64,000 nucleotides of DNA from an uncultured Planctomycetales bacterium (GTDB lineage: Bacteria; Omnitrophota; Gorgyraeia; Gygaellales; Profunditerraquicolaceae): contig CAZAPM010000001.1 in NCBI GenBank assembly GCA_964487475.1, positions 122,086 to 186,085 of the forward strand, read 5' to 3'. The position numbers and the translations under genes were made by a program. The notes under the pieces are model-generated. The model worked only from the letters and a program-made list of their open reading frames with translations. It was not told where the DNA came from and searched no databases. Of the stretch, positions 1 through 24,688 are shown one piece after another (within the stretch, counting starts at the first letter, position 1; every line of letters starts with the position of its first letter).

Positions 1-1
1 T

Positions 2-154
2 CGGCCTTCGGCGTGTGCTTCTTCCATGCCTGCCAAGATCACGGATGAAGTTAAGACGCAGAGGCTCATGCGGCTCGCCGCCCTCTTAAAGGCGGCAGGG
101 AGAGCGTTTTCCTTGCGAGACTATACGTTGCCCCATGTCCCAACTCATCGCTGA
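2..154 (+). CDS. 3' end of an ORF entering from the window edge (...KTQRLMRLAALLKAAGRAFSLRDYTLPHVPTHR*); alternatively a 42-aa peptide from ATG 26; overlaps the next gene by 20 nt
   Basis: Frame 2 is open from nt 2 to the TGA at 152-154. An ATG lies at 26. Tight overlap with the radical-SAM gene starting at 135 suggests co-translation. Not in the ORF track because it is short or partial. Confidence 0.3.
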   Translation, partial: RPSACASSMPAKITDEVKTQRLMRLAALLKAAGRAFSLRDYTLPHVPTHR

Positions 155-1178
155 ACTGTACCTGACCGAAGCATGTACCATGCGCTGCCGCTATTGTTAT
201 CTCCCCAAACGTCCGCGCAGGATGACCTGGGAAGTCGCACGTAAGGCGGTGGATCTCGTGGCTTCCAGGAAAGTGCCTTCTACCATCATCTGTTTTTTCG
301 GGGGTGAGCCTCTTCTGGAGTGGGAGCTTCTGGTCCGGGTCGTCGCATATGCGCGGCGACAGGGGATCAGGCGTTTCAACATCTGTACGAACGGACTGGC
401 GATCACACGTCGCAGGGCGGCGCAGATGGCAGCCATGAACCTGGTCCCGATGTTCAGTATCGACGGAGCGTTCCGGCAGCATGACCGGGAACGCCTGGGC
501 GTACGGGGAAGGGCTACGCATGCTCGGGTGGTCAGGCGCATAAAGGAAGCGGTCCCTTTTTTCAAGGGGATGCCTGTCCAGGTCCAGATCACGGTCACTC
601 CCGGTACCGTCGATACGCTGCGGGAGTCGGTGGGGTTCATCCGAGGTGCATTCCCCGGATGGGATATTAATCTGGTTCCTGCGGCTGCGCAAGGGGTGCG
701 TTATAGATGGGATGCATCAGCATGTACCACGCTGCGTGCGCAATGCCGGGGATTAGGCGCGGATATCGCCGCAGAGAGGCGCGCGGGAGTATCCGGTTCG
801 GTTTCATACATGTGTTGCGCGCCGCAGCGGGACCTGGCCCATTTTAAGGCAGGTCGCCGTGCTTCTTGTTTTTGCGCCCCGGCGACCAGGCATCTTTCGG
901 TCACGGTGGAGGGAGAGGTATACCCGTGTTTCTTTTTCGCGGGACTCAAGGACAAGGCGTTTCGGATCGGTGATGTGCATGAGGGGTTGTCTGCCGGGCC
1001 TTTTGTGCGTCGGGTAGGAGAGGCTTTTTCGCGAAGGCCGGGAGTGTTTACTTGTTGGGCCGGAAATGCGGTGGTGAGGGGTATGATGGAACACAGGGCC
1101 GGTATATATGAAACGTTCGACAGGGCCTGGGCGGTCGCCGCGGCTCAGGTCAGGCGCCAGGCAACGGAGGTGCGGTGA
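135..1178 (+). CDS. radical SAM enzyme with SPASM/twitch-like C-terminal domain (anSME / peptide-maturase-like)
   Basis: N-terminal CTMRCRYC (CxxxCxxC). FFGGEPLL SAM-binding motif. FSIDG...HD..R......G hallmark of the SPASM subfamily. Cys-rich C-terminal half (YMCC...SCFC...YPC...FTC) with a GDVHEGL motif resembling the SPASM G-N/D-I/V...E motif. Confidence 0.85.
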   Translation: MSQLIAELYLTEACTMRCRYCYLPKRPRRMTWEVARKAVDLVASRKVPSTIICFFGGEPLLEWELLVRVVAYARRQGIRRFNICTNGLAITRRRAAQMAAMNLVPMFSIDGAFRQHDRERLGVRGRATHARVVRRIKEAVPFFKGMPVQVQITVTPGTVDTLRESVGFIRGAFPGWDINLVPAAAQGVRYRWDASACTTLRAQCRGLGADIAAERRAGVSGSVSYMCCAPQRDLAHFKAGRRASCFCAPATRHLSVTVEGEVYPCFFFAGLKDKAFRIGDVHEGLSAGPFVRRVGEAFSRRPGVFTCWAGNAVVRGMMEHRAGIYETFDRAWAVAAAQVRRQATEVR

Positions 1179-2053
1179 GTTCAGCGGCCGGAGTCCCTCT
1201 CCGAATCCTTGAAGTGTTCGCGCGTTCCTGGGGGGGAGCGGGAGAGTATGAGTTCTCTCTTACTCAGGGGAGCGATCAGCTTGGGGTATCTCATCTGGCT
1301 TTTCCCCCCGTACCTGAGACGACTGTGAATTTCATGGAGTTCCATCGTAAACGTTCGGCGCAGATACGGGAGTGCTGCAGGCGTGTCGCGCCTCGCGTGG
1401 TTTCCGGCAGGGTATTGCGCAAGGTATGTACCTTTGCTTTGGCGTACCGGCTCCCTCTGCAGTTCGGTTGCGAGGTAGCGCCGGGAGGGGGAATGCAGGC
1501 AAAGCTGTATCTGAGCGCAGGGCCTCGGCGTATGCACCTTTTAAAGGCCGCACAGGGTATTTTGGACTCTTTCGGGTGTCCTCCGGAGGCAGCGAAAGAA
1601 TGCGTTCCTCCAGAGTGGCATATCGATGCGTTCGGGTTCGACCTTTCCGGCGTTCCGGGGGTGCGCATATATAGCGCGGTCAGGGCTACTTCCCGTGGTC
1701 TGTCCTCTCTCGGCAAGTATCTGCGTATGTGCAGGGGAGGATTTCTCTCTCCGCTTGCCCGGAGGTTCCTCTCGCATGCGTCGCAGGTGAAGCCGAAGGA
1801 TGTGCTCCTCTTGTTCCGCATTGATGCGAAAGGGATCAGTTCAGCGAAGGCTTGTTTCAGGTTCAGGAAGCCGCTTTCTTTCTCCCTGCTTAGGCGTTGC
1901 GGCCGTGTGCCTGGCGGCCGCGGATTCTCCTGGCTGAGCAGCCGCGCAGAGGAGCTGGAGAGGCAGGGGTTCGGCATTTCTTACTTCTGCGCGGAGCGCT
2001 CTTCTTGCGGGATCTATTTCCGTCATCTCACGGCGGTGAGGAGAAGTTCATGA
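1175..2053 (+). CDS. hypothetical protein (292 aa), translationally coupled between radical-SAM genes
   Basis: GTG start at 1175 overlaps the TGA of the upstream gene (GTGA). Its stop at 2051-2053 overlaps the ATG of the next gene (ATGA). Non-repetitive, protein-like composition. Competing ORFs in the interval are Arg/Pro-rich antisense-type junk. No recognisable domain. Confidence 0.5.
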   Translation: MSSAAGVPLRILEVFARSWGGAGEYEFSLTQGSDQLGVSHLAFPPVPETTVNFMEFHRKRSAQIRECCRRVAPRVVSGRVLRKVCTFALAYRLPLQFGCEVAPGGGMQAKLYLSAGPRRMHLLKAAQGILDSFGCPPEAAKECVPPEWHIDAFGFDLSGVPGVRIYSAVRATSRGLSSLGKYLRMCRGGFLSPLARRFLSHASQVKPKDVLLLFRIDAKGISSAKACFRFRKPLSFSLLRRCGRVPGGRGFSWLSSRAEELERQGFGISYFCAERSSCGIYFRHLTAVRRSS

Positions 2054-2955
2054 AAAGAAAATCCCTGCGCAAGCTCGATTACAAGATCGGGTTCGCGTGT
2101 AACAACTATTGTATCCATTGTGTACAGGGAGGCAAGCGGGAGTCGGTACGTGCGAGGACTTTGTTTCAGATCATGCGGGATATACGCGAAAGTGCGGCGA
2201 CCTGTACGGAAGTGGTGTTTACGGGAGGGGAGCCGACCATCCATCCCCATTTCCTTGAGGCGGTGCGGGAAGCTGCGAGGGCCGGCTATTCCGTGATCCA
2301 GGTGCAGTCCAATGGAAGGATGTTCGTCTATCCCGAGTTCTGCCGCGCAGCCATGGACGCAGGAGTCAATGATTTCTGTGTTGCCGTCCTTGGTGACAGC
2401 GCACGTCTCCATGAAGCGCATACTCTTGCGAAAGGGAGTTTTTCCCAGGTAGTGCAGGGTATACGGAACCTGCGTTCTTTGGGATGCCGCGTTTCGGTCA
2501 ACTCCGTGATCACCAAGCTTAACTATCGGCGTCTGCCCCGTCTGGCGATGTTCCTTTCCGGCTTAGGGGTAGCGCAGGTGCAGTTCGCGTTTCCTCATCC
2601 CGGGGGGAGGGCGTGGATAAATTTTCCGCGCGTGGTGCCGCGGATGAGCACGGTCGTGCCTTTCGTGTGCGAGGGGCTGCGGAAGGGAGCGCAGCGTGGG
2701 GTGCGCATGATGACCGAGGCTATCCCTCCGTGCATGCTTCCTGGATTCGAGGGGTTTATCGCGGAACGGATCATGCCCGATGCGACCGTGTTCGATGGCG
2801 ACCTGGTGATCGAGCGTTATGAGGAGTATCGCAGGGATAAGGGGAAGCGAAAAGGGCCCCGGTGCGGCCAGTGCCGGTATTTTCCCTCTTGCGAGGGGAC
2901 ATGGAAAGAGTATCCCGAGAAGTTCGGCTGGAAGGAGTTCAGGCCTGTCGTATGA
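2050..2955 (+). CDS. radical SAM enzyme, tandem paralog 1 (twitch-type auxiliary Cys cluster)
   Basis: CNNYCIHC CxxxCxxC motif. FTGGEPT. VQSNGRMF. GDSARLHEAHT..KGSF. C-terminal CGQCRYFPSCEG (Cx2Cx5C). ATG 2050 is preceded by the Shine-Dalgarno GGTGAGGAG. The track's longer start at 1897 is rejected. Confidence 0.85.
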   Translation: MKRKSLRKLDYKIGFACNNYCIHCVQGGKRESVRARTLFQIMRDIRESAATCTEVVFTGGEPTIHPHFLEAVREAARAGYSVIQVQSNGRMFVYPEFCRAAMDAGVNDFCVAVLGDSARLHEAHTLAKGSFSQVVQGIRNLRSLGCRVSVNSVITKLNYRRLPRLAMFLSGLGVAQVQFAFPHPGGRAWINFPRVVPRMSTVVPFVCEGLRKGAQRGVRMMTEAIPPCMLPGFEGFIAERIMPDATVFDGDLVIERYEEYRRDKGKRKGPRCGQCRYFPSCEGTWKEYPEKFGWKEFRPVV

Positions 2956-3875
2956 TCAGGAAAACGGTGATCATCATGGGGTACCGGTGTAATTGTCATT
3001 GCGTGTTCTGCTGCAATGCGCATAAGCGTTCCCTGCCCGACCGGTCCACCGATGATATTCTGGTCGAGATGGCGCGCGCGCGCAGACGCGGGTGTACGTA
3101 CCTCGAACTTATCGGAGGGGAGGGGACCATACGGAAGGATATTTTGCAGCTGGTTTCACAGGCCCGCCGCATCGGCTTCGAAGAGGTGGTCATGGCGTCC
3201 AACGGGAGGATGTTCGCGTATCCGCATTTCGCCCGAGATCTGGTGGATGCCGGGGTGACACATCTGGTATTCTCCATTCACGGGCATACCGCGGCATTAC
3301 ACGATTCTCTTACCAGGTCCCCGGGTAGTTTTGGGCAGCTGATCGAGGGGATCGGTCATATCCGTCGTTTCAGGGACCGCTGCCCCATCGGGTCTAACAC
3401 GACTATCGTGAAGGGGAATTACCGCGCGCTCGAGGAGATCGGCAAGTTCATCTATTCGCTGGGTATCCGCAACGCCGAGTTCATCTTTGTCGATCCGACA
3501 CAGGGTGCAGCGTTCTCTTCCTTTGCCCGTATCGTGCCGAGACTTTCTGTTATGGCCCCGTACGCACGTAAATGCCTGGAATTCGGGAAGGCCAGGAGGA
3601 TCCCCCACTGGCATCTGCGATACGTGCCGTTATGCCTCTTTCCCGGTCACGAAGACCGAATCAGCGAGCTTGCGGAACGGAAGACGTTCATCACGGAGCA
3701 TGTAGCCGGGGATTTCGTCAATTTTGACGTGCAGTCATCCCGTGCTTCCGTTGGGCGTATCAAGCCTCCGAAGTGCCGTAAGTGTGCGAAATTCGCCAGA
3801 TGCGAGGGGCTTTGGAAGGAATATTACCGACATTACGGGGATAAAGAACTGCTGCCGGATATCACCCATGCCTAA
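2952..3875 (+). CDS. radical SAM enzyme, tandem paralog 2
   Basis: CNCHCVFC motif. LIGGEGT. MASNGRMF. SIHGHTAALHDSLTRSPGSF. CRKCAKFARCEG. ATG 2952 overlaps the stop of paralog 1 (ATGA). Collinear motif-by-motif similarity to paralogs 1 and 3. Confidence 0.85.
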   Translation: MIRKTVIIMGYRCNCHCVFCCNAHKRSLPDRSTDDILVEMARARRRGCTYLELIGGEGTIRKDILQLVSQARRIGFEEVVMASNGRMFAYPHFARDLVDAGVTHLVFSIHGHTAALHDSLTRSPGSFGQLIEGIGHIRRFRDRCPIGSNTTIVKGNYRALEEIGKFIYSLGIRNAEFIFVDPTQGAAFSSFARIVPRLSVMAPYARKCLEFGKARRIPHWHLRYVPLCLFPGHEDRISELAERKTFITEHVAGDFVNFDVQSSRASVGRIKPPKCRKCAKFARCEGLWKEYYRHYGDKELLPDITHA

Positions 3876-4800
3876 TATTTCAGTATATCACAAATGCGAT
3901 AACCGTTGTGTGATGTGCTCCAATCCCAGGGATTTCATACAAAGCCCGGCGAAGGATTTCTCCCTGGCGCGACTTTCACGGCGTTTAAAGAATTTTTCCC
4001 TGGGGAGAAATGTCTTTCTGGAGAATTTCAGGGACGCGTTCATTCTTTCCGGCGGTGAGCCTACCATGTCTCCGGATCTTTTTCCCGTTATCCGGAGGGT
4101 CGCCACGTTGTTCCCGCAGGCTCAGATCACCTGCTTGACCAATGGCAGGGCGTTTTCCCGTGAAGCGTACGCCAGGGAGTTCATGCGGAGGTTCCCGCTG
4201 GTGAATCTGGTGATCCCCGTGCACGGGCATACGGCTTCGCTGCACGACCGTATCACCAGGGTCAAGGGGAGCTTTACGCAGACCCTGCGGGGTCTGCAGG
4301 TGATCAGTGCCCTTATGCGTCCTACCCAGCTGCTTGAGCTCCGGGTGGTCCTGCACGGCCTCAATTACCGCTGGATGAAGGAAATTGCCCGGTTTCTGCG
4401 CGCGCAGGTCCCCAGTGCGGGACGGGTGGTTTTCATATTCGTCGAAATAGAGGGGGAGGCGGCTAAGAACTGGCGGAGGATCGGCGTGACGTATACGCAG
4501 GTCCGTCCTTTCTTGCGGGAAGCGGCTTCAGAATTGCTGCGGCTTCCTGATCCCCGGCTGTACCATTTTCCGCTCTGTCTGGTGCCGCGGGCGCTTTTCC
4601 CCCTTGTTTTTCGCACCCTGCCCGAAGCAGAGATCATGTTCCCCGTTCAGTGCCGCCTCTGTGCGCTTAAAAGCTGTTGCCTGGGGGTACACCGTGGGTA
4701 CGCCGGCGGTGTAGGGGTGGATGAGTTCCGCCCTTTCAGGCGGAAGATACGCTTCGTACGTACGGGCAATTGGTATCATCCGATCGGCAGGGTTTTGTGA
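3868..4800 (+). CDS. radical SAM enzyme, tandem paralog 3
   Basis: CDNRCVMC motif. LSGGEPT. CLTNGRAF. PVHGHTASLHDRITRVKGSF. C-terminal CRLCALKSCC. ATG 3868 overlaps the end of paralog 2 by 8 nt. Confidence 0.8.
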   Translation: MPNISVYHKCDNRCVMCSNPRDFIQSPAKDFSLARLSRRLKNFSLGRNVFLENFRDAFILSGGEPTMSPDLFPVIRRVATLFPQAQITCLTNGRAFSREAYAREFMRRFPLVNLVIPVHGHTASLHDRITRVKGSFTQTLRGLQVISALMRPTQLLELRVVLHGLNYRWMKEIARFLRAQVPSAGRVVFIFVEIEGEAAKNWRRIGVTYTQVRPFLREAASELLRLPDPRLYHFPLCLVPRALFPLVFRTLPEAEIMFPVQCRLCALKSCCLGVHRGYAGGVGVDEFRPFRRKIRFVRTGNWYHPIGRVL

Positions 4801-5738
4801 TGGTTCCTTTCACGCTTGCCGACGCCCTCCTTTTTCCGGGCGTACTGGTCCTGGGAGCGGTAACCAGCATTGAGGATTTCAGGATTGGCAAGGTCCGTAA
4901 TGTCTGGATCCTGCGCGGCATGCTGTACGCGGTACTTGTGTACTGCGCGGTCTTTCTGCTGCAGTTCGTTATGGGAGGGGACCAGGGAGTGCGCGCACTG
5001 GTGCAGCCATTTTTTTACCGTTTCGACAGGTTCCTGGTTACGGTAGGAACGAGTATCTGTGTGGCATATGCGCTTTGGAGGTATCGAGTGTGGGGCGCAG
5101 GGGATGCGAAACTTTTCATCTGTTATTCGATGCTTTTCCCCCTTTCAAGTTACCGGCTTGTGTATTTCGATCATTATTTCGCATCGTACCTTATCCTGCT
5201 GGCGATCTTTATTCCCGCCACCGTCTTTCTCCTGGGGCGTTCGCTGTTTTTTTTCCTCCGATCCGGGGAATACTGGCGCACGCGTGCGGAAACGAGGAAG
5301 GTGATGCCTCGCCGTCCCCTCAAGGAGAAATGCGTGGGAGGAGCGCGGATATTCCTGGGTTTTTTCCTGATGTTCATCCTTGCCCAGTTGCTTATCGCGG
5401 GTATTCCCTTTTTCTCCCGGGGAGGGGCGGGGAGTCTCGGCGCGATCGTGCTTTCGTGGCTCGTGTTTAGGCCGCTATCCCTTTTTTTTAAGCGTTACCA
5501 TCTTGCGGTGATTTCCGGTTTCCTTATCCTTGCCGTGGGAGCAGGGTTTTTCCCGGAGCTGCGTGCCTCGCTTATTTCAAAAGAGCTGTGGTTCTCTTTT
5601 CTGCGTGCGCTGGCGGCGCTTGTGGGTTTCCCGGTATTTCGCATGGTCATCGATGAATATGTGGATTATTCCGGCCGCAAGGAATCCCGTTTTGCGGTGT
5701 GGATGTTCCTGGGAACAATTATTTCACGGTTCCTGTGA
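4800..5738 (+). CDS. polytopic membrane protein, prepilin-peptidase (A24, TadV/CpaA)-like aspartyl protease
   Basis: Highly hydrophobic with multiple predicted TM helices. First catalytic Asp context SIEDFRIGKVRN resembles CpaA/TadV D....R.IPN. Second motif WGAGDAKLF matches the A24 GGGDxKL motif. ATG 4800 overlaps the TGA of the preceding radical-SAM gene (TGATG). The track's TTG start at 4770 is also possible. Confidence 0.6.
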   Translation: MVPFTLADALLFPGVLVLGAVTSIEDFRIGKVRNVWILRGMLYAVLVYCAVFLLQFVMGGDQGVRALVQPFFYRFDRFLVTVGTSICVAYALWRYRVWGAGDAKLFICYSMLFPLSSYRLVYFDHYFASYLILLAIFIPATVFLLGRSLFFFLRSGEYWRTRAETRKVMPRRPLKEKCVGGARIFLGFFLMFILAQLLIAGIPFFSRGGAGSLGAIVLSWLVFRPLSLFFKRYHLAVISGFLILAVGAGFFPELRASLISKELWFSFLRALAALVGFPVFRMVIDEYVDYSGRKESRFAVWMFLGTIISRFL

Positions 5739-5787
5739 GATTCCCTTTCCCGTTGCGTCTTAAGTAGAGGAAAGGGGGGAATTTCGT

Positions 5788-5816
5788 TTGACAGCCCAAG
5801 GGAAGAGGGCTATAAT
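5788..5816 (+). promoter_or_regulatory. sigma70-type promoter upstream of recA (TTGACA-17 nt-TATAAT)
   Basis: Consensus -35 TTGACA at 5788-5793, 17-nt spacer, consensus -10 TATAAT at 5811-5816. RBS GGAGG at 5863-5867 precedes ATG 5874. Confidence 0.6.
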
Positions 5817-5873
5817 TAACTTCTTAAATTACTTTAATAAAGTCGGAAAAAGCTTAAGATTTGGAGGTTTACG

Positions 5874-6974
5874 ATGAGTGCTGAAAAGAAACCAGCAGGA
5901 AAGTCCGCTGCTGCCGCCCCCGTTGCGGCGGTAGAGGAGCAGAAGCAGTCCTCCGAGCGTAACGAGCGAAGCAAGGCGCTTGAGCTCGCGCTTTCCCAGA
6001 TAGAGAAACAGTTCGGCAAGGGGTCGATCATGAAGCTTGGCGGCGACGTCAAGGTTCACGTCGATGCCATCCCGACCGGCGCCCTGACCCTGGATGTGGC
6101 CTTGGGCGTGGGAGGCCTTCCCCGCGGCCGTATCATCGAGGTCTTCGGGCCGGAAGCCAGCGGTAAGACCACCCTGACCCTGACCCTGATCCGCGAGATC
6201 CAGAAAAAGGGGGGTGTCGCGGCATTTATCGACGCTGAGCACGCGTTCGATTCCACTTATGCGAAGGTCATCGGGGTCAATCTCGACGACCTGCTCATCT
6301 CCCAGCCGGATACGGGAGAGCAGGCGCTGGAGATCGCCGAGACTCTGGTGCGCTCCAATGCGGTGGACGTGATCGTGATCGATTCCGTCGCGGCGTTGAC
6401 ACCCCGCGCCGAGATCGAGGGCGAGATGGGGGATGCGCACGTCGGGCTTCAGGCGAGGCTGATGTCGCAGGCCCTGCGCAAGCTCACCGCGGCGATCAGC
6501 AAATCCCGGACCTGCATGGTGTTCATCAATCAGCTGCGCGAGAAGATCGGCGTCATGTTCGGCTCTCCCGAGACCACTCCCGGAGGCCGGGCGCTGAAGT
6601 TCTATTCGTCGGTAAGGCTCGATCTGCGCCGTATCGCGACCCTGAAATCCGGGGAGCAGGTGATCGGCAACCGCGTCAAATGCAAAGTGGTCAAGAACAA
6701 GGTCGCACCTCCCTTCCGCGAGGCGGAGTTCGAGACGCTGCATAACGAAGGGATCTCCAAGGCCGGTTCGATCGTCGACGCCGGGGTGGGGGTGGGGGTC
6801 CTGGACAAGCCCGGGGTGTGGATCTCCTTCAACGGAGAAAAGATCGGACAGGGCAGGGACGCGGCGGTCAAGACGGTCAAAGAGAACATCAAACTTGCGG
6901 ACGCGATCGAGAAAGAGATCCGCAAGCGGATATTCGCAGGTGCGGAACCTGCCAAACCCGCTGCCAAAGCGTAA
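5874..6974 (+). CDS. recA: recombinase RecA
   Basis: [12 protein letters not shown] Walker [45 protein letters not shown]. Unmistakable RecA. Confidence 0.97.
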
Positions 6975-24222: not shown

Positions 24223-24295
24223 GCTGGAGTAGCTCAGTTGGTAGAGCACGTCCTTGGTAAGGACGGGGTCACGGGTTCAATTCCCGTCTCCAGCT
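24223..24295 (+). tRNA. tRNA-Thr (anticodon GGT)
   Basis: Cloverleaf: acceptor GCTGGAG/CTCCAGC; D-arm GCTCAGTTGGTAGAGC; anticodon arm CGTCC-TTGGTAA-GGACG; T-arm ACGGG-TTCAATT-CCCGT. Confidence 0.9.
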
Positions 24296-24332
24296 TAAAC
24301 TTCTGAACTCACGCGGGCACTAGGGAGCACGA

Positions 24333-24494
24333 ATGGGAAAAGCGGTACGCGAGATCATCAATTTCGAATGCACGGTATGCAAGCACCGCAATTATACCGG
24401 CACGAAGAACAAGAAGCAGCATCAGGAAAAGCTCGAACTGAAGCGGTATTGCAAGTTCTGCCATAAGCACACTCCCCATAAAGAGATTAAGTAG
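24333..24494 (+). CDS. rpmG: 50S ribosomal protein L33
   Basis: 53 aa [53 protein letters not shown] with zinc-ribbon Cys pairs. Below the track's ORF size cutoff. Confidence 0.9.
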
Positions 24495-24575
24495 GACAGA
24501 AAGTCCTACACCAGCCTATCCGATTAGGCTGGGTGTTGGTTCAGCAGGTTGTGGTAGGGAGTAGGCAGTAGATTT

Positions 24576-24646
24576 AGGAGCGTCGGTTAATGGCAAACCA
24601 ACGGTCTCCAAAACCGTGACTGCAGGTTCGAGCCCTGCCGCTCCTG
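24576..24646 (+). tRNA. tRNA-Trp (anticodon CCA)
   Basis: Acceptor AGGAGCG/CGCTCCT. Anticodon loop CTCCAAA. T-arm GCAGG-TTCGAGC-CCTGC. Canonical position upstream of secE. Confidence 0.85.
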
Positions 24647-24688
24647 TAAATATCCGTAAGGGGCACTACGCAGAGATCAAAGGACGCA

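What the first reader, a model, noticed from the sequence alone, without database searches (positions are those of the whole stretch)
2050..4800. Three tandem radical-SAM paralogs with conserved motif order and start/stop overlaps
Genes at 2050-2955, 2952-3875 and 3868-4800 are each about 300 aa and share collinear motifs: CxxxCxxC, GGEP/GGEG, (S/T)NGR(M/A)F, HG.T..LHD..T...GSF, N..I.K.NYR and a C-terminal Cx2Cx5C-type cluster. Triplication of a twitch-type radical-SAM enzyme points to iterative or site-specific modification of one substrate (as with multiple crosslinks or epimerisations in RiPPs), or to a hetero-oligomeric enzyme. The ATGA and 8-nt overlaps imply stoichiometric co-expression.
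Basis: seen in the sequence. Interest (0 to 1): 0.65.

Follow-up and report, generated by a model that had tools for sequence, protein, structure and literature searches.

The report
Three HxsC-like radical-SAM peptide maturases
Three neighbouring genes encode related but long-diverged iron-sulfur "radical SAM" enzymes that sit in one operon with a membrane protease and other tailoring enzymes. They most likely modify a histidine/serine-repeat peptide, as an expanded and uncharacterised cousin of the recently described HXS anti-phage system, found in Omnitrophota, Patescibacteria and DPANN archaea.

Summary
Genes at 2050-2955 (P1), 2952-3875 (P2) and 3868-4800 (P3) are collinear radical-SAM paralogs. 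Each keeps the CxxxCxxC triad, the GGE motif and four further invariant Cys, which fits one auxiliary cluster (twitch type).

They are not a local triplication. P1, P2 and P3 fall in three old orthogroups, each with closer relatives in other bacteria and in archaea (39-54% identity) than in each other (26-36%).

They lie in a longer translationally coupled operon: a partial methylthiotransferase-like ORF cut by the window edge, a SPASM-like rSAM (135-1178), a possible ABBA-prenyltransferase-fold protein (1175-2053), P1-P2-P3, and an A24-type intramembrane aspartyl peptidase (4800-5738).

The nearest curated families are HxsC (P3) and HxsC4 (P1, P2); all three score far below the cut-offs.

In related loci the same P1/P2/P3/A24 module sits beside HxsD, HxsB and a conserved-leader precursor with 5-9 His-Xaa-Ser repeats.

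No such precursor lies in the 64-kb window. The operon runs off the left edge, so the substrate assignment here is inferred.

Best reading: an expanded HXS-type peptide maturation pathway in which the three paralogs do non-redundant radical steps. Novelty: a new variant of a known kind.

The parts
2..154 (+). 3' end of an ORF cut by the window edge, overlapping the next gene by 20 nt. It is possibly a TRAM-less MiaB/RimO-type methylthiotransferase-like rSAM. It is not HxsD.
   Evidence: Translation. There is no HxsD or HxsD_rel hit; the only hit is a weak MiaB one (TIGR01574, E 0.12, profile positions 338-368). In L028 a 390-aa UPF0004+Radical_SAM gene without TRAM holds the same position, directly upstream of the SPASM-like rSAM. 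The assignment is weak.
135..1178 (+). SPASM-like radical-SAM enzyme (347 aa). It is PapB/HxsB-like but is a member of neither family.
   Evidence: PF04055 scores 63 bits; SPASM scores 19.8 bits, below the 21.5 cut-off. The best NCBIfam hit is PapB at 138 bits (cut-off 340); HxsB scores 61 bits (cut-off 370). It is 27% identical to L028 4221-5333, which holds the same position.
1175..2053 (+). X292, a 292-aa protein of a very small family, possibly with an ABBA (alpha-beta-beta-alpha) prenyltransferase fold.
   Evidence: No Pfam or NCBIfam hit. An exhaustive phmmer search of 1.8 billion representatives found only 6 remote homologs. The single-sequence AF2 model has pLDDT 52 but a repeated helix-helix-strand-strand pattern. 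In Foldseek against PDB, 49 of the top 50 hits are ABBA prenyltransferases: PriB (E 5e-4), DMATS1, IptA, CymD, PagF and NphB. No sequence-level PDB hit. A homolog occupies the same operon position in L028.
2050..2955 (+). P1: HxsC4-like twitch radical-SAM enzyme (301 aa).
   Evidence: PF04055 scores 72 bits. HxsC4 (NF038332) scores 152.7 bits against a cut-off of 500. There are 922 homologs at E<=1e-5 among the 8000 candidates scored, the best at 45-54% identity. The AF2 model has pLDDT 96.4. The P1 clade contains bacterial and archaeal members.
2952..3875 (+). P2: HxsC4-like twitch radical-SAM enzyme (307 aa).
   Evidence: PF04055 scores 61.4 bits. HxsC4 scores 143 bits over its full length, against a cut-off of 500. 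Orthologs are 54% identical in L023, 56% in L029 and 52% in L013. It forms its own clade.
3868..4800 (+). P3: HxsC-like twitch radical-SAM enzyme (310 aa). It lacks the ~90-125-aa N-terminal extension seen in the two canonical HxsC proteins compared.
   Evidence: HxsC (TIGR03977) scores 157.2 bits against a cut-off of 267.9. A tblastn search of plasmids gave 434 matching records; all 15 listed are annotated hxsC, at 27-29% identity over about 94% of P3. BLASTP to Paraburkholderia HxsC aligns P3 residues 3-290 with HxsC residues 123-399. In the NJ tree the clade holding P3 and its L023 ortholog is sister to canonical HxsC.
4800..5738 (+). Multi-pass membrane protein: A24-family (prepilin/preflagellin-type, GxGD) intramembrane aspartyl peptidase homolog, and the candidate leader peptidase.
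   Evidence: The window copy scores only 17.8-18 bits on PF01478, below the 26.5 cut-off. However, 8 of 9 family members match Peptidase_A24 (best E 3.6e-9) and 6 of 9 match Arc_PepC. Invariant residues are D26, N34, W98-x-A-G-D102-x-K104 and the C-terminal F-A...G. It is encoded at the downstream end of the rSAM gene set, directly after the last HxsC-like gene, in the window, L023, L024, L029 and L031.

Best explanation
P1, P2 and P3 are three anciently diverged, catalytically intact HxsC-type twitch radical-SAM enzymes. Together with an A24-type intramembrane aspartyl peptidase they form the conserved downstream module of an expanded His-Xaa-Ser (HXS)-type peptide maturation operon.

Proposed mechanism:
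1. A ribosomal precursor is made. It has a conserved basic leader (…P-x-I-K-K-x-I-x-x-F-L-x-x-E-E-G-x-I-S-K-K…G), a hydrophobic segment and a core of 5-9 His-Xaa-Ser repeats.
2. It is bound in the cytoplasm.
3. Each paralog reductively cleaves SAM at its CxxxCxxC cluster. It then uses the 5'-deoxyadenosyl radical to abstract a different hydrogen in or near the HxS repeats, so the three install distinct, successive modifications. The single auxiliary [4Fe-4S] cluster serves electron transfer or substrate ligation.
4. The other operon enzymes add further steps. These are the SPASM-like rSAM, the methylthiotransferase-like rSAM and the possible ABBA prenyltransferase-like protein.
5. The hydrophobic segment inserts in the membrane, and the A24 peptidase removes the leader at the conserved Gly before that segment, as for class III signal peptides. 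This releases a modified His/Ser-rich peptide at the cell surface.

Shown here: paralogy, intact motifs, the fold of P1, the operon structure, orthogroup conservation across domains, and co-location with HxsB, HxsD and HxS-repeat precursors in related loci.

Inferred: that the window's own operon uses such a precursor (none is in the window), the division of labour among P1, P2 and P3, the chemistry, the cleavage site, and the biological role (envelope defence as in E. coli HXS, or metal or surface function).
For: 1. Motifs and fold. There are 49 invariant columns among the three proteins. In a 79-sequence alignment, C17, C21, C24, C228, C272, C275 and C281 are all invariant. The P1 AF2 model has pLDDT 96.4 and pTM 0.92, with a beta-hairpin (245-254) and helix (257-265) between C228 and CxxCx5C. 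The top Foldseek hits are SkfB, BlsE, GDGT-MAS, viperin, DesII, SuiB and MoaA. By sequence, the closest PDB entries are BlsE, PqqE, GDGT-MAS, SkfB and MoaA.

2. HxsC kinship. P3's best family is HxsC and P1/P2's best family is HxsC4. A tblastn search with P3 matched 434 plasmid records; every one of the 15 listed is annotated hxsC. The NJ tree places P3 and its L023 ortholog as sister to canonical HxsC.

3. Old orthogroups. L023 (Omnitrophota) carries one-to-one orthologs of P1 (51%), P2 (54%), P3 (39%) and the membrane peptidase (32%), in the same order. L029 (Patescibacteria) carries P1 (50%), P3 (36%), P2 (56%) and the peptidase (28%). Archaeal loci L005, L010, L013 and L018 carry all three types.

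4. Link to HXS components. L023 has HxsD (TIGR03976, 52 bits against cut-off 50), HxsD_rel (65 against 41) and HxsB (490 against 370). It also has a 106-aa precursor with the run HNSHTSHSSHGSHGSHSN, which hits HxsA3/HxsA4. Homologous precursors with the same leader occur in L006, L014, L015, L017, L020, L028 and L029.

5. Bridge to the window's architecture. L028 has, in order: an HxS-repeat precursor, HxsB-like fragments, a HemN-like rSAM, a methylthiotransferase-like rSAM, a SPASM-like rSAM, an X292 homolog, YcaO, then P1 (51%).

6. A24 peptidase family assignment.

7. Single operon. All junctions overlap. The only strong promoter match lies downstream, before recA.

8. Precedent. [quoted passage not shown]
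Against: - No HxS-repeat or leader-like ORF exists anywhere in the 64-kb window, by regex or by an HMM built from six precursors run against the six-frame translation.
- No HxsD or bona fide HxsB is visible in the window. The upstream region could not be recovered.
- All three proteins score far below the curated HxsC and HxsC4 cut-offs, and P3 lacks the canonical N-terminal domain.
- Only 8 of about 24 P1-family loci show a precursor within the fetched flanks. Some P1 homologs are solitary (L019, L030).
- P3-type genes were not found in the fetched parts of the Iainarchaeum loci and of L007.
- The NJ tree has no bootstrap support.
- The chemistry of even the canonical HxsC is unknown.
Confidence: 0.6

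Rival explanations
1. The three paralogs assemble into an obligate hetero-oligomer that performs one (or fewer than three) reactions. Some subunits would serve mainly as scaffold or substrate-binding partners, replacing the missing N-terminal domain and the HxsD partner of canonical HxsC.
For: The genes are tightly translationally coupled. Several loci conserve them as a set. A natural 657-aa fusion of two HxsC-like domains exists in L029. Canonical HxsC works in a complex with HxsD. P1-P3 lack the N-terminal extension of canonical HxsC.
Against: All three keep every catalytic and cluster-binding residue. P1 deviates at only 4 of 88 near-invariant family positions, within the normal range. The set is not fixed: some loci have P1+P2 without P3, P1+P3 without P2, or solitary P1.
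Confidence: 0.2
2. The three enzymes do the same chemistry but at different repeats or positions of a repetitive substrate (site specialisation), rather than three different reactions.
For: Precursors in related loci carry 5-9 near-identical HxS repeats. The number of paralogs per locus varies from 2 to more than 6.
Against: The paralogs are only 26-36% identical to each other, yet each is conserved at 39-56% across phyla and domains. That pattern is more typical of distinct functions. In E. coli one HxsC suffices for a five-repeat HxsA.
Confidence: 0.15
3. The operon makes or modifies a non-peptide molecule, such as a cofactor, nucleoside, or isoprenoid/lipid. The rSAMs would be related to MoaA, BlsE, AhbD or Tes, X292 would be a prenyltransferase, and the last gene a membrane protein.
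For: Source annotations call them MoaA/NifB/PqqE-family enzymes. There are weak NCBIfam hits to BlsE, AhbD, MoaA, NirJ and Tes. BlsE and GDGT-MAS are among the best fold matches. X292 has a possible ABBA prenyltransferase fold.
Against: All those hits are 40-66 bits against cut-offs of 231-650 and cover only the generic rSAM core. No molybdopterin, heme or lipid genes lie next to the operon. The best-scoring families are the peptide/protein maturases HxsC and HxsC4. Orthologous modules sit beside HxsB, HxsD and HxS-repeat precursors. The membrane protein is a peptidase homolog.
Confidence: 0.08
4. A recent local triplication of one gene, giving redundant or decaying copies.
For: The genes are tandem, about equal in length and share motifs.
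Against: Each copy is more similar to genes in other phyla, and in archaea, than to its neighbours. The three fall in separate clades. There is no loss of conserved residues.
Confidence: 0.02

Closest known systems
HXS (His-Xaa-Ser) system, HxsA-HxsB-HxsC-HxsD. It was defined bioinformatically by Haft & Basu 2011 (from my own knowledge; the attribution is quoted in PMC9062424) and shown to be an anti-phage system in E. coli (PMC13128918).
   Same: P3's best family is HxsC, and it aligns over about 94% of its length with plasmid hxsC genes. Orthologs of P1-P3 in L023, L029, L020, L014 and L015 are clustered with proteins that pass the HxsB and HxsD cut-offs and with HxS-repeat precursors. N-terminal processing plus export of the substrate is a feature of the canonical system. 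Here it is matched by a dedicated peptidase gene.
   Different: The canonical system has four genes, lies 99.7% in Pseudomonadota, and has one HxsC of 360-405 aa with an N-terminal extension. Here there are three short HxsC-like paralogs, all below the family cut-offs, plus an A24 peptidase, a SPASM-like rSAM that is not HxsB, a methylthiotransferase-like rSAM and a possible ABBA-fold protein. Precursors in related loci are short (86-125 aa), carry a different conserved leader and a hydrophobic segment, and have no peptidoglycan-binding domain. No HxsA or HxsD is visible in the window.
NCBIfam variant-HXS models: HxsC4 (NF038332), HxsA3 (NF038309), HxsA4 (NF038313) and HxsD_rel (NF038315).
   Same: HxsC4 is the best hit for P1 and P2. 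The precursors in related loci hit HxsA3/HxsA4 across the leader and repeats. The 75-aa protein in L023 passes HxsD_rel.
   Different: P1 and P2 score 153 and 143 bits against a cut-off of 500. The precursors score 37-49 bits against cut-offs of 65 and 55. These are therefore more distant relatives than the curated families. I found no publication describing those families.
Twitch/SPASM radical-SAM maturases with solved structures: SkfB (6efn), BlsE (7vob), MoaA (1tv7), SuiB (5v1q) and PqqE (6c8v).
   Same: They share the partial TIM-barrel rSAM core followed by a Cys / beta-hairpin / helix / CxxCx5C auxiliary-cluster domain.
   Different: Sequence identity is 13-23% and TM-scores are 0.5-0.72. 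P1 has only four auxiliary Cys, so one cluster rather than the two of SPASM, and no RRE or N-terminal peptide-binding domain.
Type IV prepilin / archaeal preflagellin peptidases (MEROPS A24: PilD, FlaK, PibD, EppA).
   Same: The last operon gene shares the D...N and GxGD-K-L motifs and a C-terminal PFA...G motif that I take (by recall, not tested) to correspond to the A24 PFGP motif. Family members hit PF01478 and the archaeal A24 C-terminal domains. Precursors in related loci have a basic N-terminus and a Gly directly before a hydrophobic stretch, like class III signal peptides.
   Different: The window copy is below the Pfam cut-off (18 against 26.5 bits). The leader is about 30-40 aa, much longer than prepilin leaders. 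No pilus assembly genes are adjacent. Cleavage has not been shown.

Membership tests
Radical SAM superfamily (PF04055) | CxxxCxxC motif for the SAM-binding [4Fe-4S] cluster | tested here: met
   P1 has CNNYCIHC, P2 has CNCHCVFC and P3 has CDNRCVMC. The three Cys are invariant in the 79-sequence alignment.
Radical SAM superfamily (PF04055) | Score above Pfam's gathering threshold | tested here: met
   72.0, 61.4 and 52.3 bits against 29.5.
Radical SAM superfamily (PF04055) | Partial (beta/alpha)6 TIM-barrel fold | tested here: met
   Tested for P1 only. The AF2 model has pLDDT 96.4, and all top Foldseek matches are rSAM enzymes.
Twitch subclass of SPASM/twitch rSAM enzymes | A C-terminal domain with Cys ligands for one auxiliary Fe-S cluster, arranged Cys / beta-hairpin / helix / CxxCx5C | tested here: met
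   C228, C272, C275 and C281 are invariant in all three paralogs and in 76 homologs. The model places a hairpin at 245-254 and a helix at 257-265 between them.
Twitch subclass of SPASM/twitch rSAM enzymes | Actual binding of an auxiliary [4Fe-4S] or [2Fe-2S] cluster | not testable with these tools
   Needs Fe/S quantification, EPR or a crystal structure.
SPASM (PF13186; seven-Cys, two auxiliary clusters) | The seven-Cys motif CX9-15GX4C...CX2CX5CX3C...C | tested here: not met
   Only four conserved C-terminal Cys are present. P1, P2 and P3 have no PF13186 hit.
HxsC (TIGR03977) | Score at or above the curated cut-off of 267.9 bits | tested here: not met
   P3 scores 157.2, P1 88.3 and P2 71.0 bits.
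HxsC (TIGR03977) | Encoded next to HxsB, with HxsA and HxsD in the locus | tested here: inconclusive
   None is visible in the window, but the operon is cut at position 1. Orthologs in L023 and L029 do sit with HxsD, HxsB and an HxS-repeat precursor.
HxsC (TIGR03977) | N-terminal extension of about 90-125 aa before the Cys triad, as in the two canonical proteins compared | tested here: not met
   The triad starts at residue 10 in P3. It starts at residue 130 in Paraburkholderia HxsC and at residue 94 in Rhizobium HxsC.
HxsC4 (NF038332) | Score at or above the curated cut-off of 500 bits | tested here: not met
   P1 scores 152.7, P2 143.0 and P3 92.9 bits.
HxsB (TIGR03978), tested for gene 135-1178 | Score at or above the curated cut-off of 370 bits | tested here: not met
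   It scores 61.4 bits. Its best hit is PapB at 138 bits against a cut-off of 340.
Peptidase A24 (PF01478), tested for gene 4800-5738 | Two catalytic Asp, the second in a GxGD motif | tested here: met
   D26 and the motif W-G-A-G-D102-A-K-L are invariant in nine family members.
Peptidase A24 (PF01478), tested for gene 4800-5738 | Score at or above the gathering threshold of 26.5 bits | tested here: not met
   The window copy scores 17.8-18.0 bits. However, 8 of 9 homologs match at E<=0.01, the best at 3.6e-9.
ABBA prenyltransferases, tested for gene 1175-2053 | PT-barrel made of repeated alpha-alpha-beta-beta units | tested here: inconclusive
   The predicted secondary-structure pattern fits, and Foldseek's top hits are ABBA prenyltransferases. 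However, the model has pLDDT 52 and TM 0.4-0.5, and there is no sequence-level hit.

The most novel reading that the evidence does not exclude
A multi-radical-SAM pathway is conserved across domains: in Omnitrophota, Patescibacteria, an unclassified low-GC contig, and DPANN archaea. Three or more distinct HxsC-type enzymes, plus variable HxsB, B12-rSAM, HemN-like, methylthiotransferase-like, YcaO and prenyltransferase-like partners, would heavily rewrite a His-Xaa-Ser-repeat peptide. That peptide would then be processed like a pilin by a dedicated A24 intramembrane peptidase and displayed at the cell surface. This would be a new RiPP or protein-maturation class. It would extend the HXS 'DNA-entry gatekeeper' idea, or a metal-binding or attachment function, to lineages that include many small-genome and ultra-small organisms. 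Each of P1, P2 and P3 would catalyse a different, so far undescribed radical reaction on His or Ser.
Probability: 0.35. Interest if true: 0.8.

Novelty: new variant of a known kind. Interest (0 to 1): 0.6.

Why it matters
The chemistry of HxsC is unknown even in the one characterised HXS system, where only an unexplained +8 Da change has been reported (PMC13128918). Here the HxsC scaffold has split into at least three orthogroups, each conserved between bacteria and archaea. They are linked to a dedicated leader-peptidase candidate and to short, simple precursors.

That gives a tractable route to the chemistry: co-express a ~100-aa peptide with one, two or three small (~300-aa) enzymes. It could also assign functions to a family with at least 922 detectable homologs, whose best-scoring members are labelled only 'radical SAM protein' or 'MoaA/NifB/PqqE/SkfB family'.

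The cluster spans about 10-13 kb in L023 and L029. In L029, a Patescibacteria MAG, it lies between ftsZ and nrdR/nrdD, i.e. among core genes. That placement hints at an important envelope function rather than a dispensable island.

Tried and rejected
1. Recovering DNA upstream of window position 1. I tried exact-protein look-ups of the SPASM-like rSAM, P1 and RecA, an exact 30-nt DNA scan of metagenome contigs, and a protein-pattern scan with the 50-aa upstream fragment. Only 1.3-5.2-kb contigs that do not extend leftwards, or nothing, came back.

2. My first guess was that ORF 2-154 is HxsD, because of an 'LRDYTL' motif. I rejected this: it has no HxsD or HxsD_rel hit, and the syntenic gene in L028 is methylthiotransferase-like.

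3. Searching the window for a precursor. A regex for three or more HxS repeats and an HMM built from six precursors, both run on the six-frame translation, found nothing.

4. X292. The word-indexed homolog search found only itself. A profile search added one protein.

5. PADLOC gave only generic rSAM cross-hits to pVip. This is not evidence of a known defence system.

6. The Mem-family profile against PDB sequences gave no A24 structure hit.

8. I suspected P1 might be decaying, because it has LGD where the family has HGH. I rejected this: it is a subclade trait, and P1 deviates at only 4 of 88 near-invariant positions.

9. Haft & Basu 2011 could not be read.

10. The organism could not be named. 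Source records give no taxon.

Full report
**1. Observation**

The + strand of window 135-5738 carries six ORFs whose ends all overlap:
- 135-1178: a SPASM-like radical-SAM (rSAM) enzyme, here called A
- 1175-2053: X292
- 2050-2955: P1
- 2952-3875: P2
- 3868-4800: P3
- 4800-5738: Mem

The junctions read GTGA, ATGA, ATGA, ATGCCTAA and TGATG. A further ORF, cut by the window edge at 2-154, overlaps A by 20 nt.

Only three promoter-like sites are found in 1-6100, which is no more than the shuffled sequence gives. The single + strand site is a perfect 12/12 sigma-70 consensus at 5788-5816, in front of recA. The three genes of the finding are therefore the middle of one longer operon.

P1, P2 and P3 each pass PF04055. 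They align collinearly with 49 invariant columns. All keep the CxxxCxxC triad, the GGE motif and four further Cys (C228, C272, C275, C281 in P1 numbering). Pairwise E-values run from 4e-14 to 2e-51.

**2. Fold**

I aligned P1 with 76 homologs plus P2 and P3. The seven Cys, G59-G60-E61, N88, R90, H121 and a few other residues are invariant. AlphaFold2 on this alignment gives pLDDT 96.4 and pTM 0.92. The model has a beta/alpha core, then a beta-hairpin (245-254) and a helix (257-265) between C228 and CxxCx5C.

The best Foldseek matches in the PDB are SkfB, BlsE, GDGT-MAS, viperins, DesII, SuiB and MoaA. By sequence the best are BlsE, PqqE, GDGT-MAS, SkfB and MoaA.

Four auxiliary Cys and no PF13186 hit indicate one auxiliary cluster. 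That makes these enzymes twitch type rather than SPASM.

P1 deviates from the family's near-invariant residues at only 4 of 88 positions (median 2, maximum 6 among homologs). Its 'LGD' in place of 'HGH' is shared by its closest relatives. None of the three looks like a pseudo-enzyme.

**3. Family**

NCBIfam's best hits are HxsC4 (NF038332) for P1 (152.7 bits) and P2 (143.0 bits), and HxsC (TIGR03977) for P3 (157.2 bits). All lie far below the cut-offs of 500 and 267.9. Hits to MoaA, AhbD, NirJ, BlsE and Tes score 40-66 bits and cover only the generic core.

A tblastn search of plasmids with P3 matched 434 records. All 15 listed are annotated hxsC, at 27-29% identity over about 94% of P3. Canonical HxsC carries an extra ~90-125 N-terminal residues that P3 lacks.

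**4. Not a recent triplication**

A scan of species-representative genomes and several exact-protein look-ups gave about 24 loci with P1 relatives at 41-54% identity. They come from Omnitrophota, Patescibacteria, 'Deltaproteobacteria' MAGs and DPANN archaea (Aenigmatarchaeota, Iainarchaeum, Woesearchaeota and Undinarchaeota).

Most of these loci carry several HxsC-like paralogs. L023 (Omnitrophota) has one-to-one counterparts of P1 (51%), P2 (54%), P3 (39%) and Mem (32%), in the same order. L029 (Patescibacteria) has P1 (50%), P3 (36%), P2 (56%) and Mem (28%). L005, L010, L013 and L018 have all three types.

A neighbour-joining tree of 62 sequences puts P1, P2 and P3 in three separate clades, each mixing bacterial and archaeal members. 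P3 and its L023 ortholog are sister to canonical HxsC. The tree has no bootstrap, but it agrees with the identity values.

**5. Context and substrate**

L023 encodes, upstream of its P1-P2-P3-Mem module:
- HxsD (TIGR03976, 52 bits against a cut-off of 50)
- an HxsD-like protein (NF038315, 65 against 41)
- HxsB (TIGR03978, 490 against 370)
- a 106-aa protein containing HNSHTSHSSHGSHGSHSN, which hits the HxsA3/HxsA4 models below their cut-offs

Homologous precursors occur in L006, L014, L015, L017, L020, L028 and L029. They share three features:
- a conserved leader (…P-x-I-K-K-x-I-x-x-F-L-x-x-E-E-G-x-I-S-K-K…G)
- a hydrophobic segment of about 12-15 residues
- 5-9 HxS repeats where the gene is complete (the copy in L006 is cut by the contig end)

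L028 is the bridge to the window's particular architecture. It reads, in order: precursor, HxsB-like fragments, a HemN-like rSAM, a UPF0004+rSAM (methylthiotransferase-like, no TRAM domain), a SPASM-like rSAM (27% identical to A), an X292 homolog, YcaO, then P1 (51%). Its precursor is frameshifted at a run of nine G; the +1 frame restores seven HxS repeats.

The window's cut ORF (2-154) gives only a weak MiaB hit and no HxsD hit. By position it corresponds to L028's methylthiotransferase-like gene.

The window itself contains no HxS-repeat or leader-like ORF. Every attempt to recover upstream DNA failed. The substrate assignment for this operon is therefore by homology of context, not by direct observation.

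**6. The last gene (Mem)**

Mem and its relatives are multi-pass membrane proteins. They share an invariant D26, N34, W-x-A-G-D102-x-K and a C-terminal F-A...G. Of nine relatives, eight hit Peptidase_A24 (best E 3.6e-9) and six hit the archaeal A24 C-terminal domain. The window copy alone is below the Pfam cut-off.

The precursors have a basic N-terminus and a conserved Gly immediately before the hydrophobic stretch. This is the layout of class III signal peptides cut by A24 enzymes (established knowledge). In E. coli HXS, N-terminal processing and export of HxsA depend on the rSAM enzymes, and no protease for that cleavage is named in the sections I read.

**7. X292**

X292 has no family hit. 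An exhaustive search found only six remote homologs. The low-confidence model (pLDDT 52) shows four to five helix-helix-strand-strand repeats. Of Foldseek's top 50 PDB hits, 49 are ABBA prenyltransferases, with E down to 5e-4 and TM 0.4-0.5. This is suggestive, not established.

**8. Mechanism proposed**

The operon encodes an expanded HXS-type maturation line. P1, P2 and P3 each use SAM-derived radical chemistry on the HxS-repeat core and carry out different, successive steps. Other operon enzymes add further modifications. The A24 homolog then removes the leader after membrane insertion, which leaves a modified His/Ser-rich peptide at the surface.

The steps shown and the steps inferred are listed separately under the best explanation. 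Three rivals remain open at lower probability: an obligate hetero-oligomer, the same chemistry at different repeats, and a non-peptide substrate. A recent local triplication is refuted.

**9. Comparison and novelty**

The canonical HXS system has four genes, is almost confined to Pseudomonadota, and blocks phage DNA entry (PMC13128918). NCBIfam holds models for variant components (HxsA3, HxsA4, HxsC4, HxsD_rel), so such variants have been noticed by curators. I found no paper on them.

The window's proteins fail every curated cut-off, so they are not members of those families. They are best described as a new variant of the HXS kind. The differences are multiple short HxsC paralogs, a dedicated A24 peptidase, extra tailoring enzymes, and a host range that spans Omnitrophota, Patescibacteria and DPANN archaea.

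**10. Limits**

- Sampling of loci was anchored on P1.
- Only 8 of about 24 loci show a precursor within the fetched flanks.
- Some P1 homologs are solitary (L019, L030).
- The chemistry is unknown.

Noticed in passing
window 1175-2053: X292 is a 292-aa protein with no Pfam or NCBIfam hit and only six remote homologs among 1.8 billion representatives. Its predicted helix-helix-strand-strand repeats and Foldseek hits point to an ABBA prenyltransferase fold. It is a candidate peptide (possibly His) prenyltransferase inside the operon.
   Followed up: partly
window 135-5738 versus 5874-64000: Third-codon-position GC of the six operon genes is 0.62-0.67. In the flanking housekeeping genes (recA, alaS, hisD, rpoB/C, fusA, tuf) it is 0.74-0.85. 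This is compatible with horizontal acquisition or with low expression.
   Followed up: no
window 5788-5816: A perfect sigma-70 consensus promoter (TTGACA, 17 nt, TATAAT) lies 58 nt upstream of recA. It follows an imperfect inverted repeat (CCCTTTCC...GGAAAGGG, about 5743-5776) after the operon's last stop codon.
   Followed up: partly
window 2-154: An ORF cut by the window edge ends 20 nt inside the next gene. It gives a weak MiaB-like match. If it is a methylthiotransferase it lacks the TRAM domain, like the syntenic 390-aa gene in L028.
   Followed up: partly
L028 182-547 (G9 run near 395-405): The HxS-repeat precursor gene is frameshifted at a run of nine G. The +1 frame restores GGGHGSHASHTSHASHASHSSHGSHGSGGWC*. 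This is either an assembly error or homopolymer phase variation of the substrate gene.
   Followed up: partly
L029 10918-12891: A 657-aa protein is a natural fusion of two HxsC-like rSAM domains (P1-like plus P2-like). This hints that the paralogs work in physical proximity.
   Followed up: no
L023 3093-3596 and 14862-15989: Two secreted proteins flank the Omnitrophota cluster and share an N-terminal 'ET(M/V)TITTYYPSPxGSY' motif. The second carries a Peptidase_S74 (intramolecular chaperone) domain.
   Followed up: no
L005, L006, L016, L017, L021, L028, L029 (for example L016 1317-2327); L005, L007, L009, L012, L016 and L017 for the small protein: Two more families recur in the archaeal and Patescibacteria clusters. 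One is a ~300-340-aa 'GYP(E/K/D/R)CC...H(V/I/T)PC' protein with a weak DUF483 hit. The other is a ~130-150-aa membrane-anchored Cys-rich protein (motif WCC...C), encoded directly after P2 in L005, L007, L009 and L012 and just upstream of P1, on the opposite strand, in L016 and L017. Neither is present in the window.
   Followed up: partly
L032-L039 (IMG/VR contigs): Distant P1 relatives (26-36% identity) occur on eight predicted viral contigs, three of them 159-267 kb. Some lie next to other rSAM genes. No HxS-repeat precursor is nearby.
   Followed up: partly
window 24223-24647: tRNA-Thr(GGT) and tRNA-Trp(CCA) lie upstream of a ribosomal-protein/rpoB-rpoC/fusA-tuf block. This is an ordinary core-genome layout, which shows that the operon sits in a housekeeping region.
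   Followed up: no
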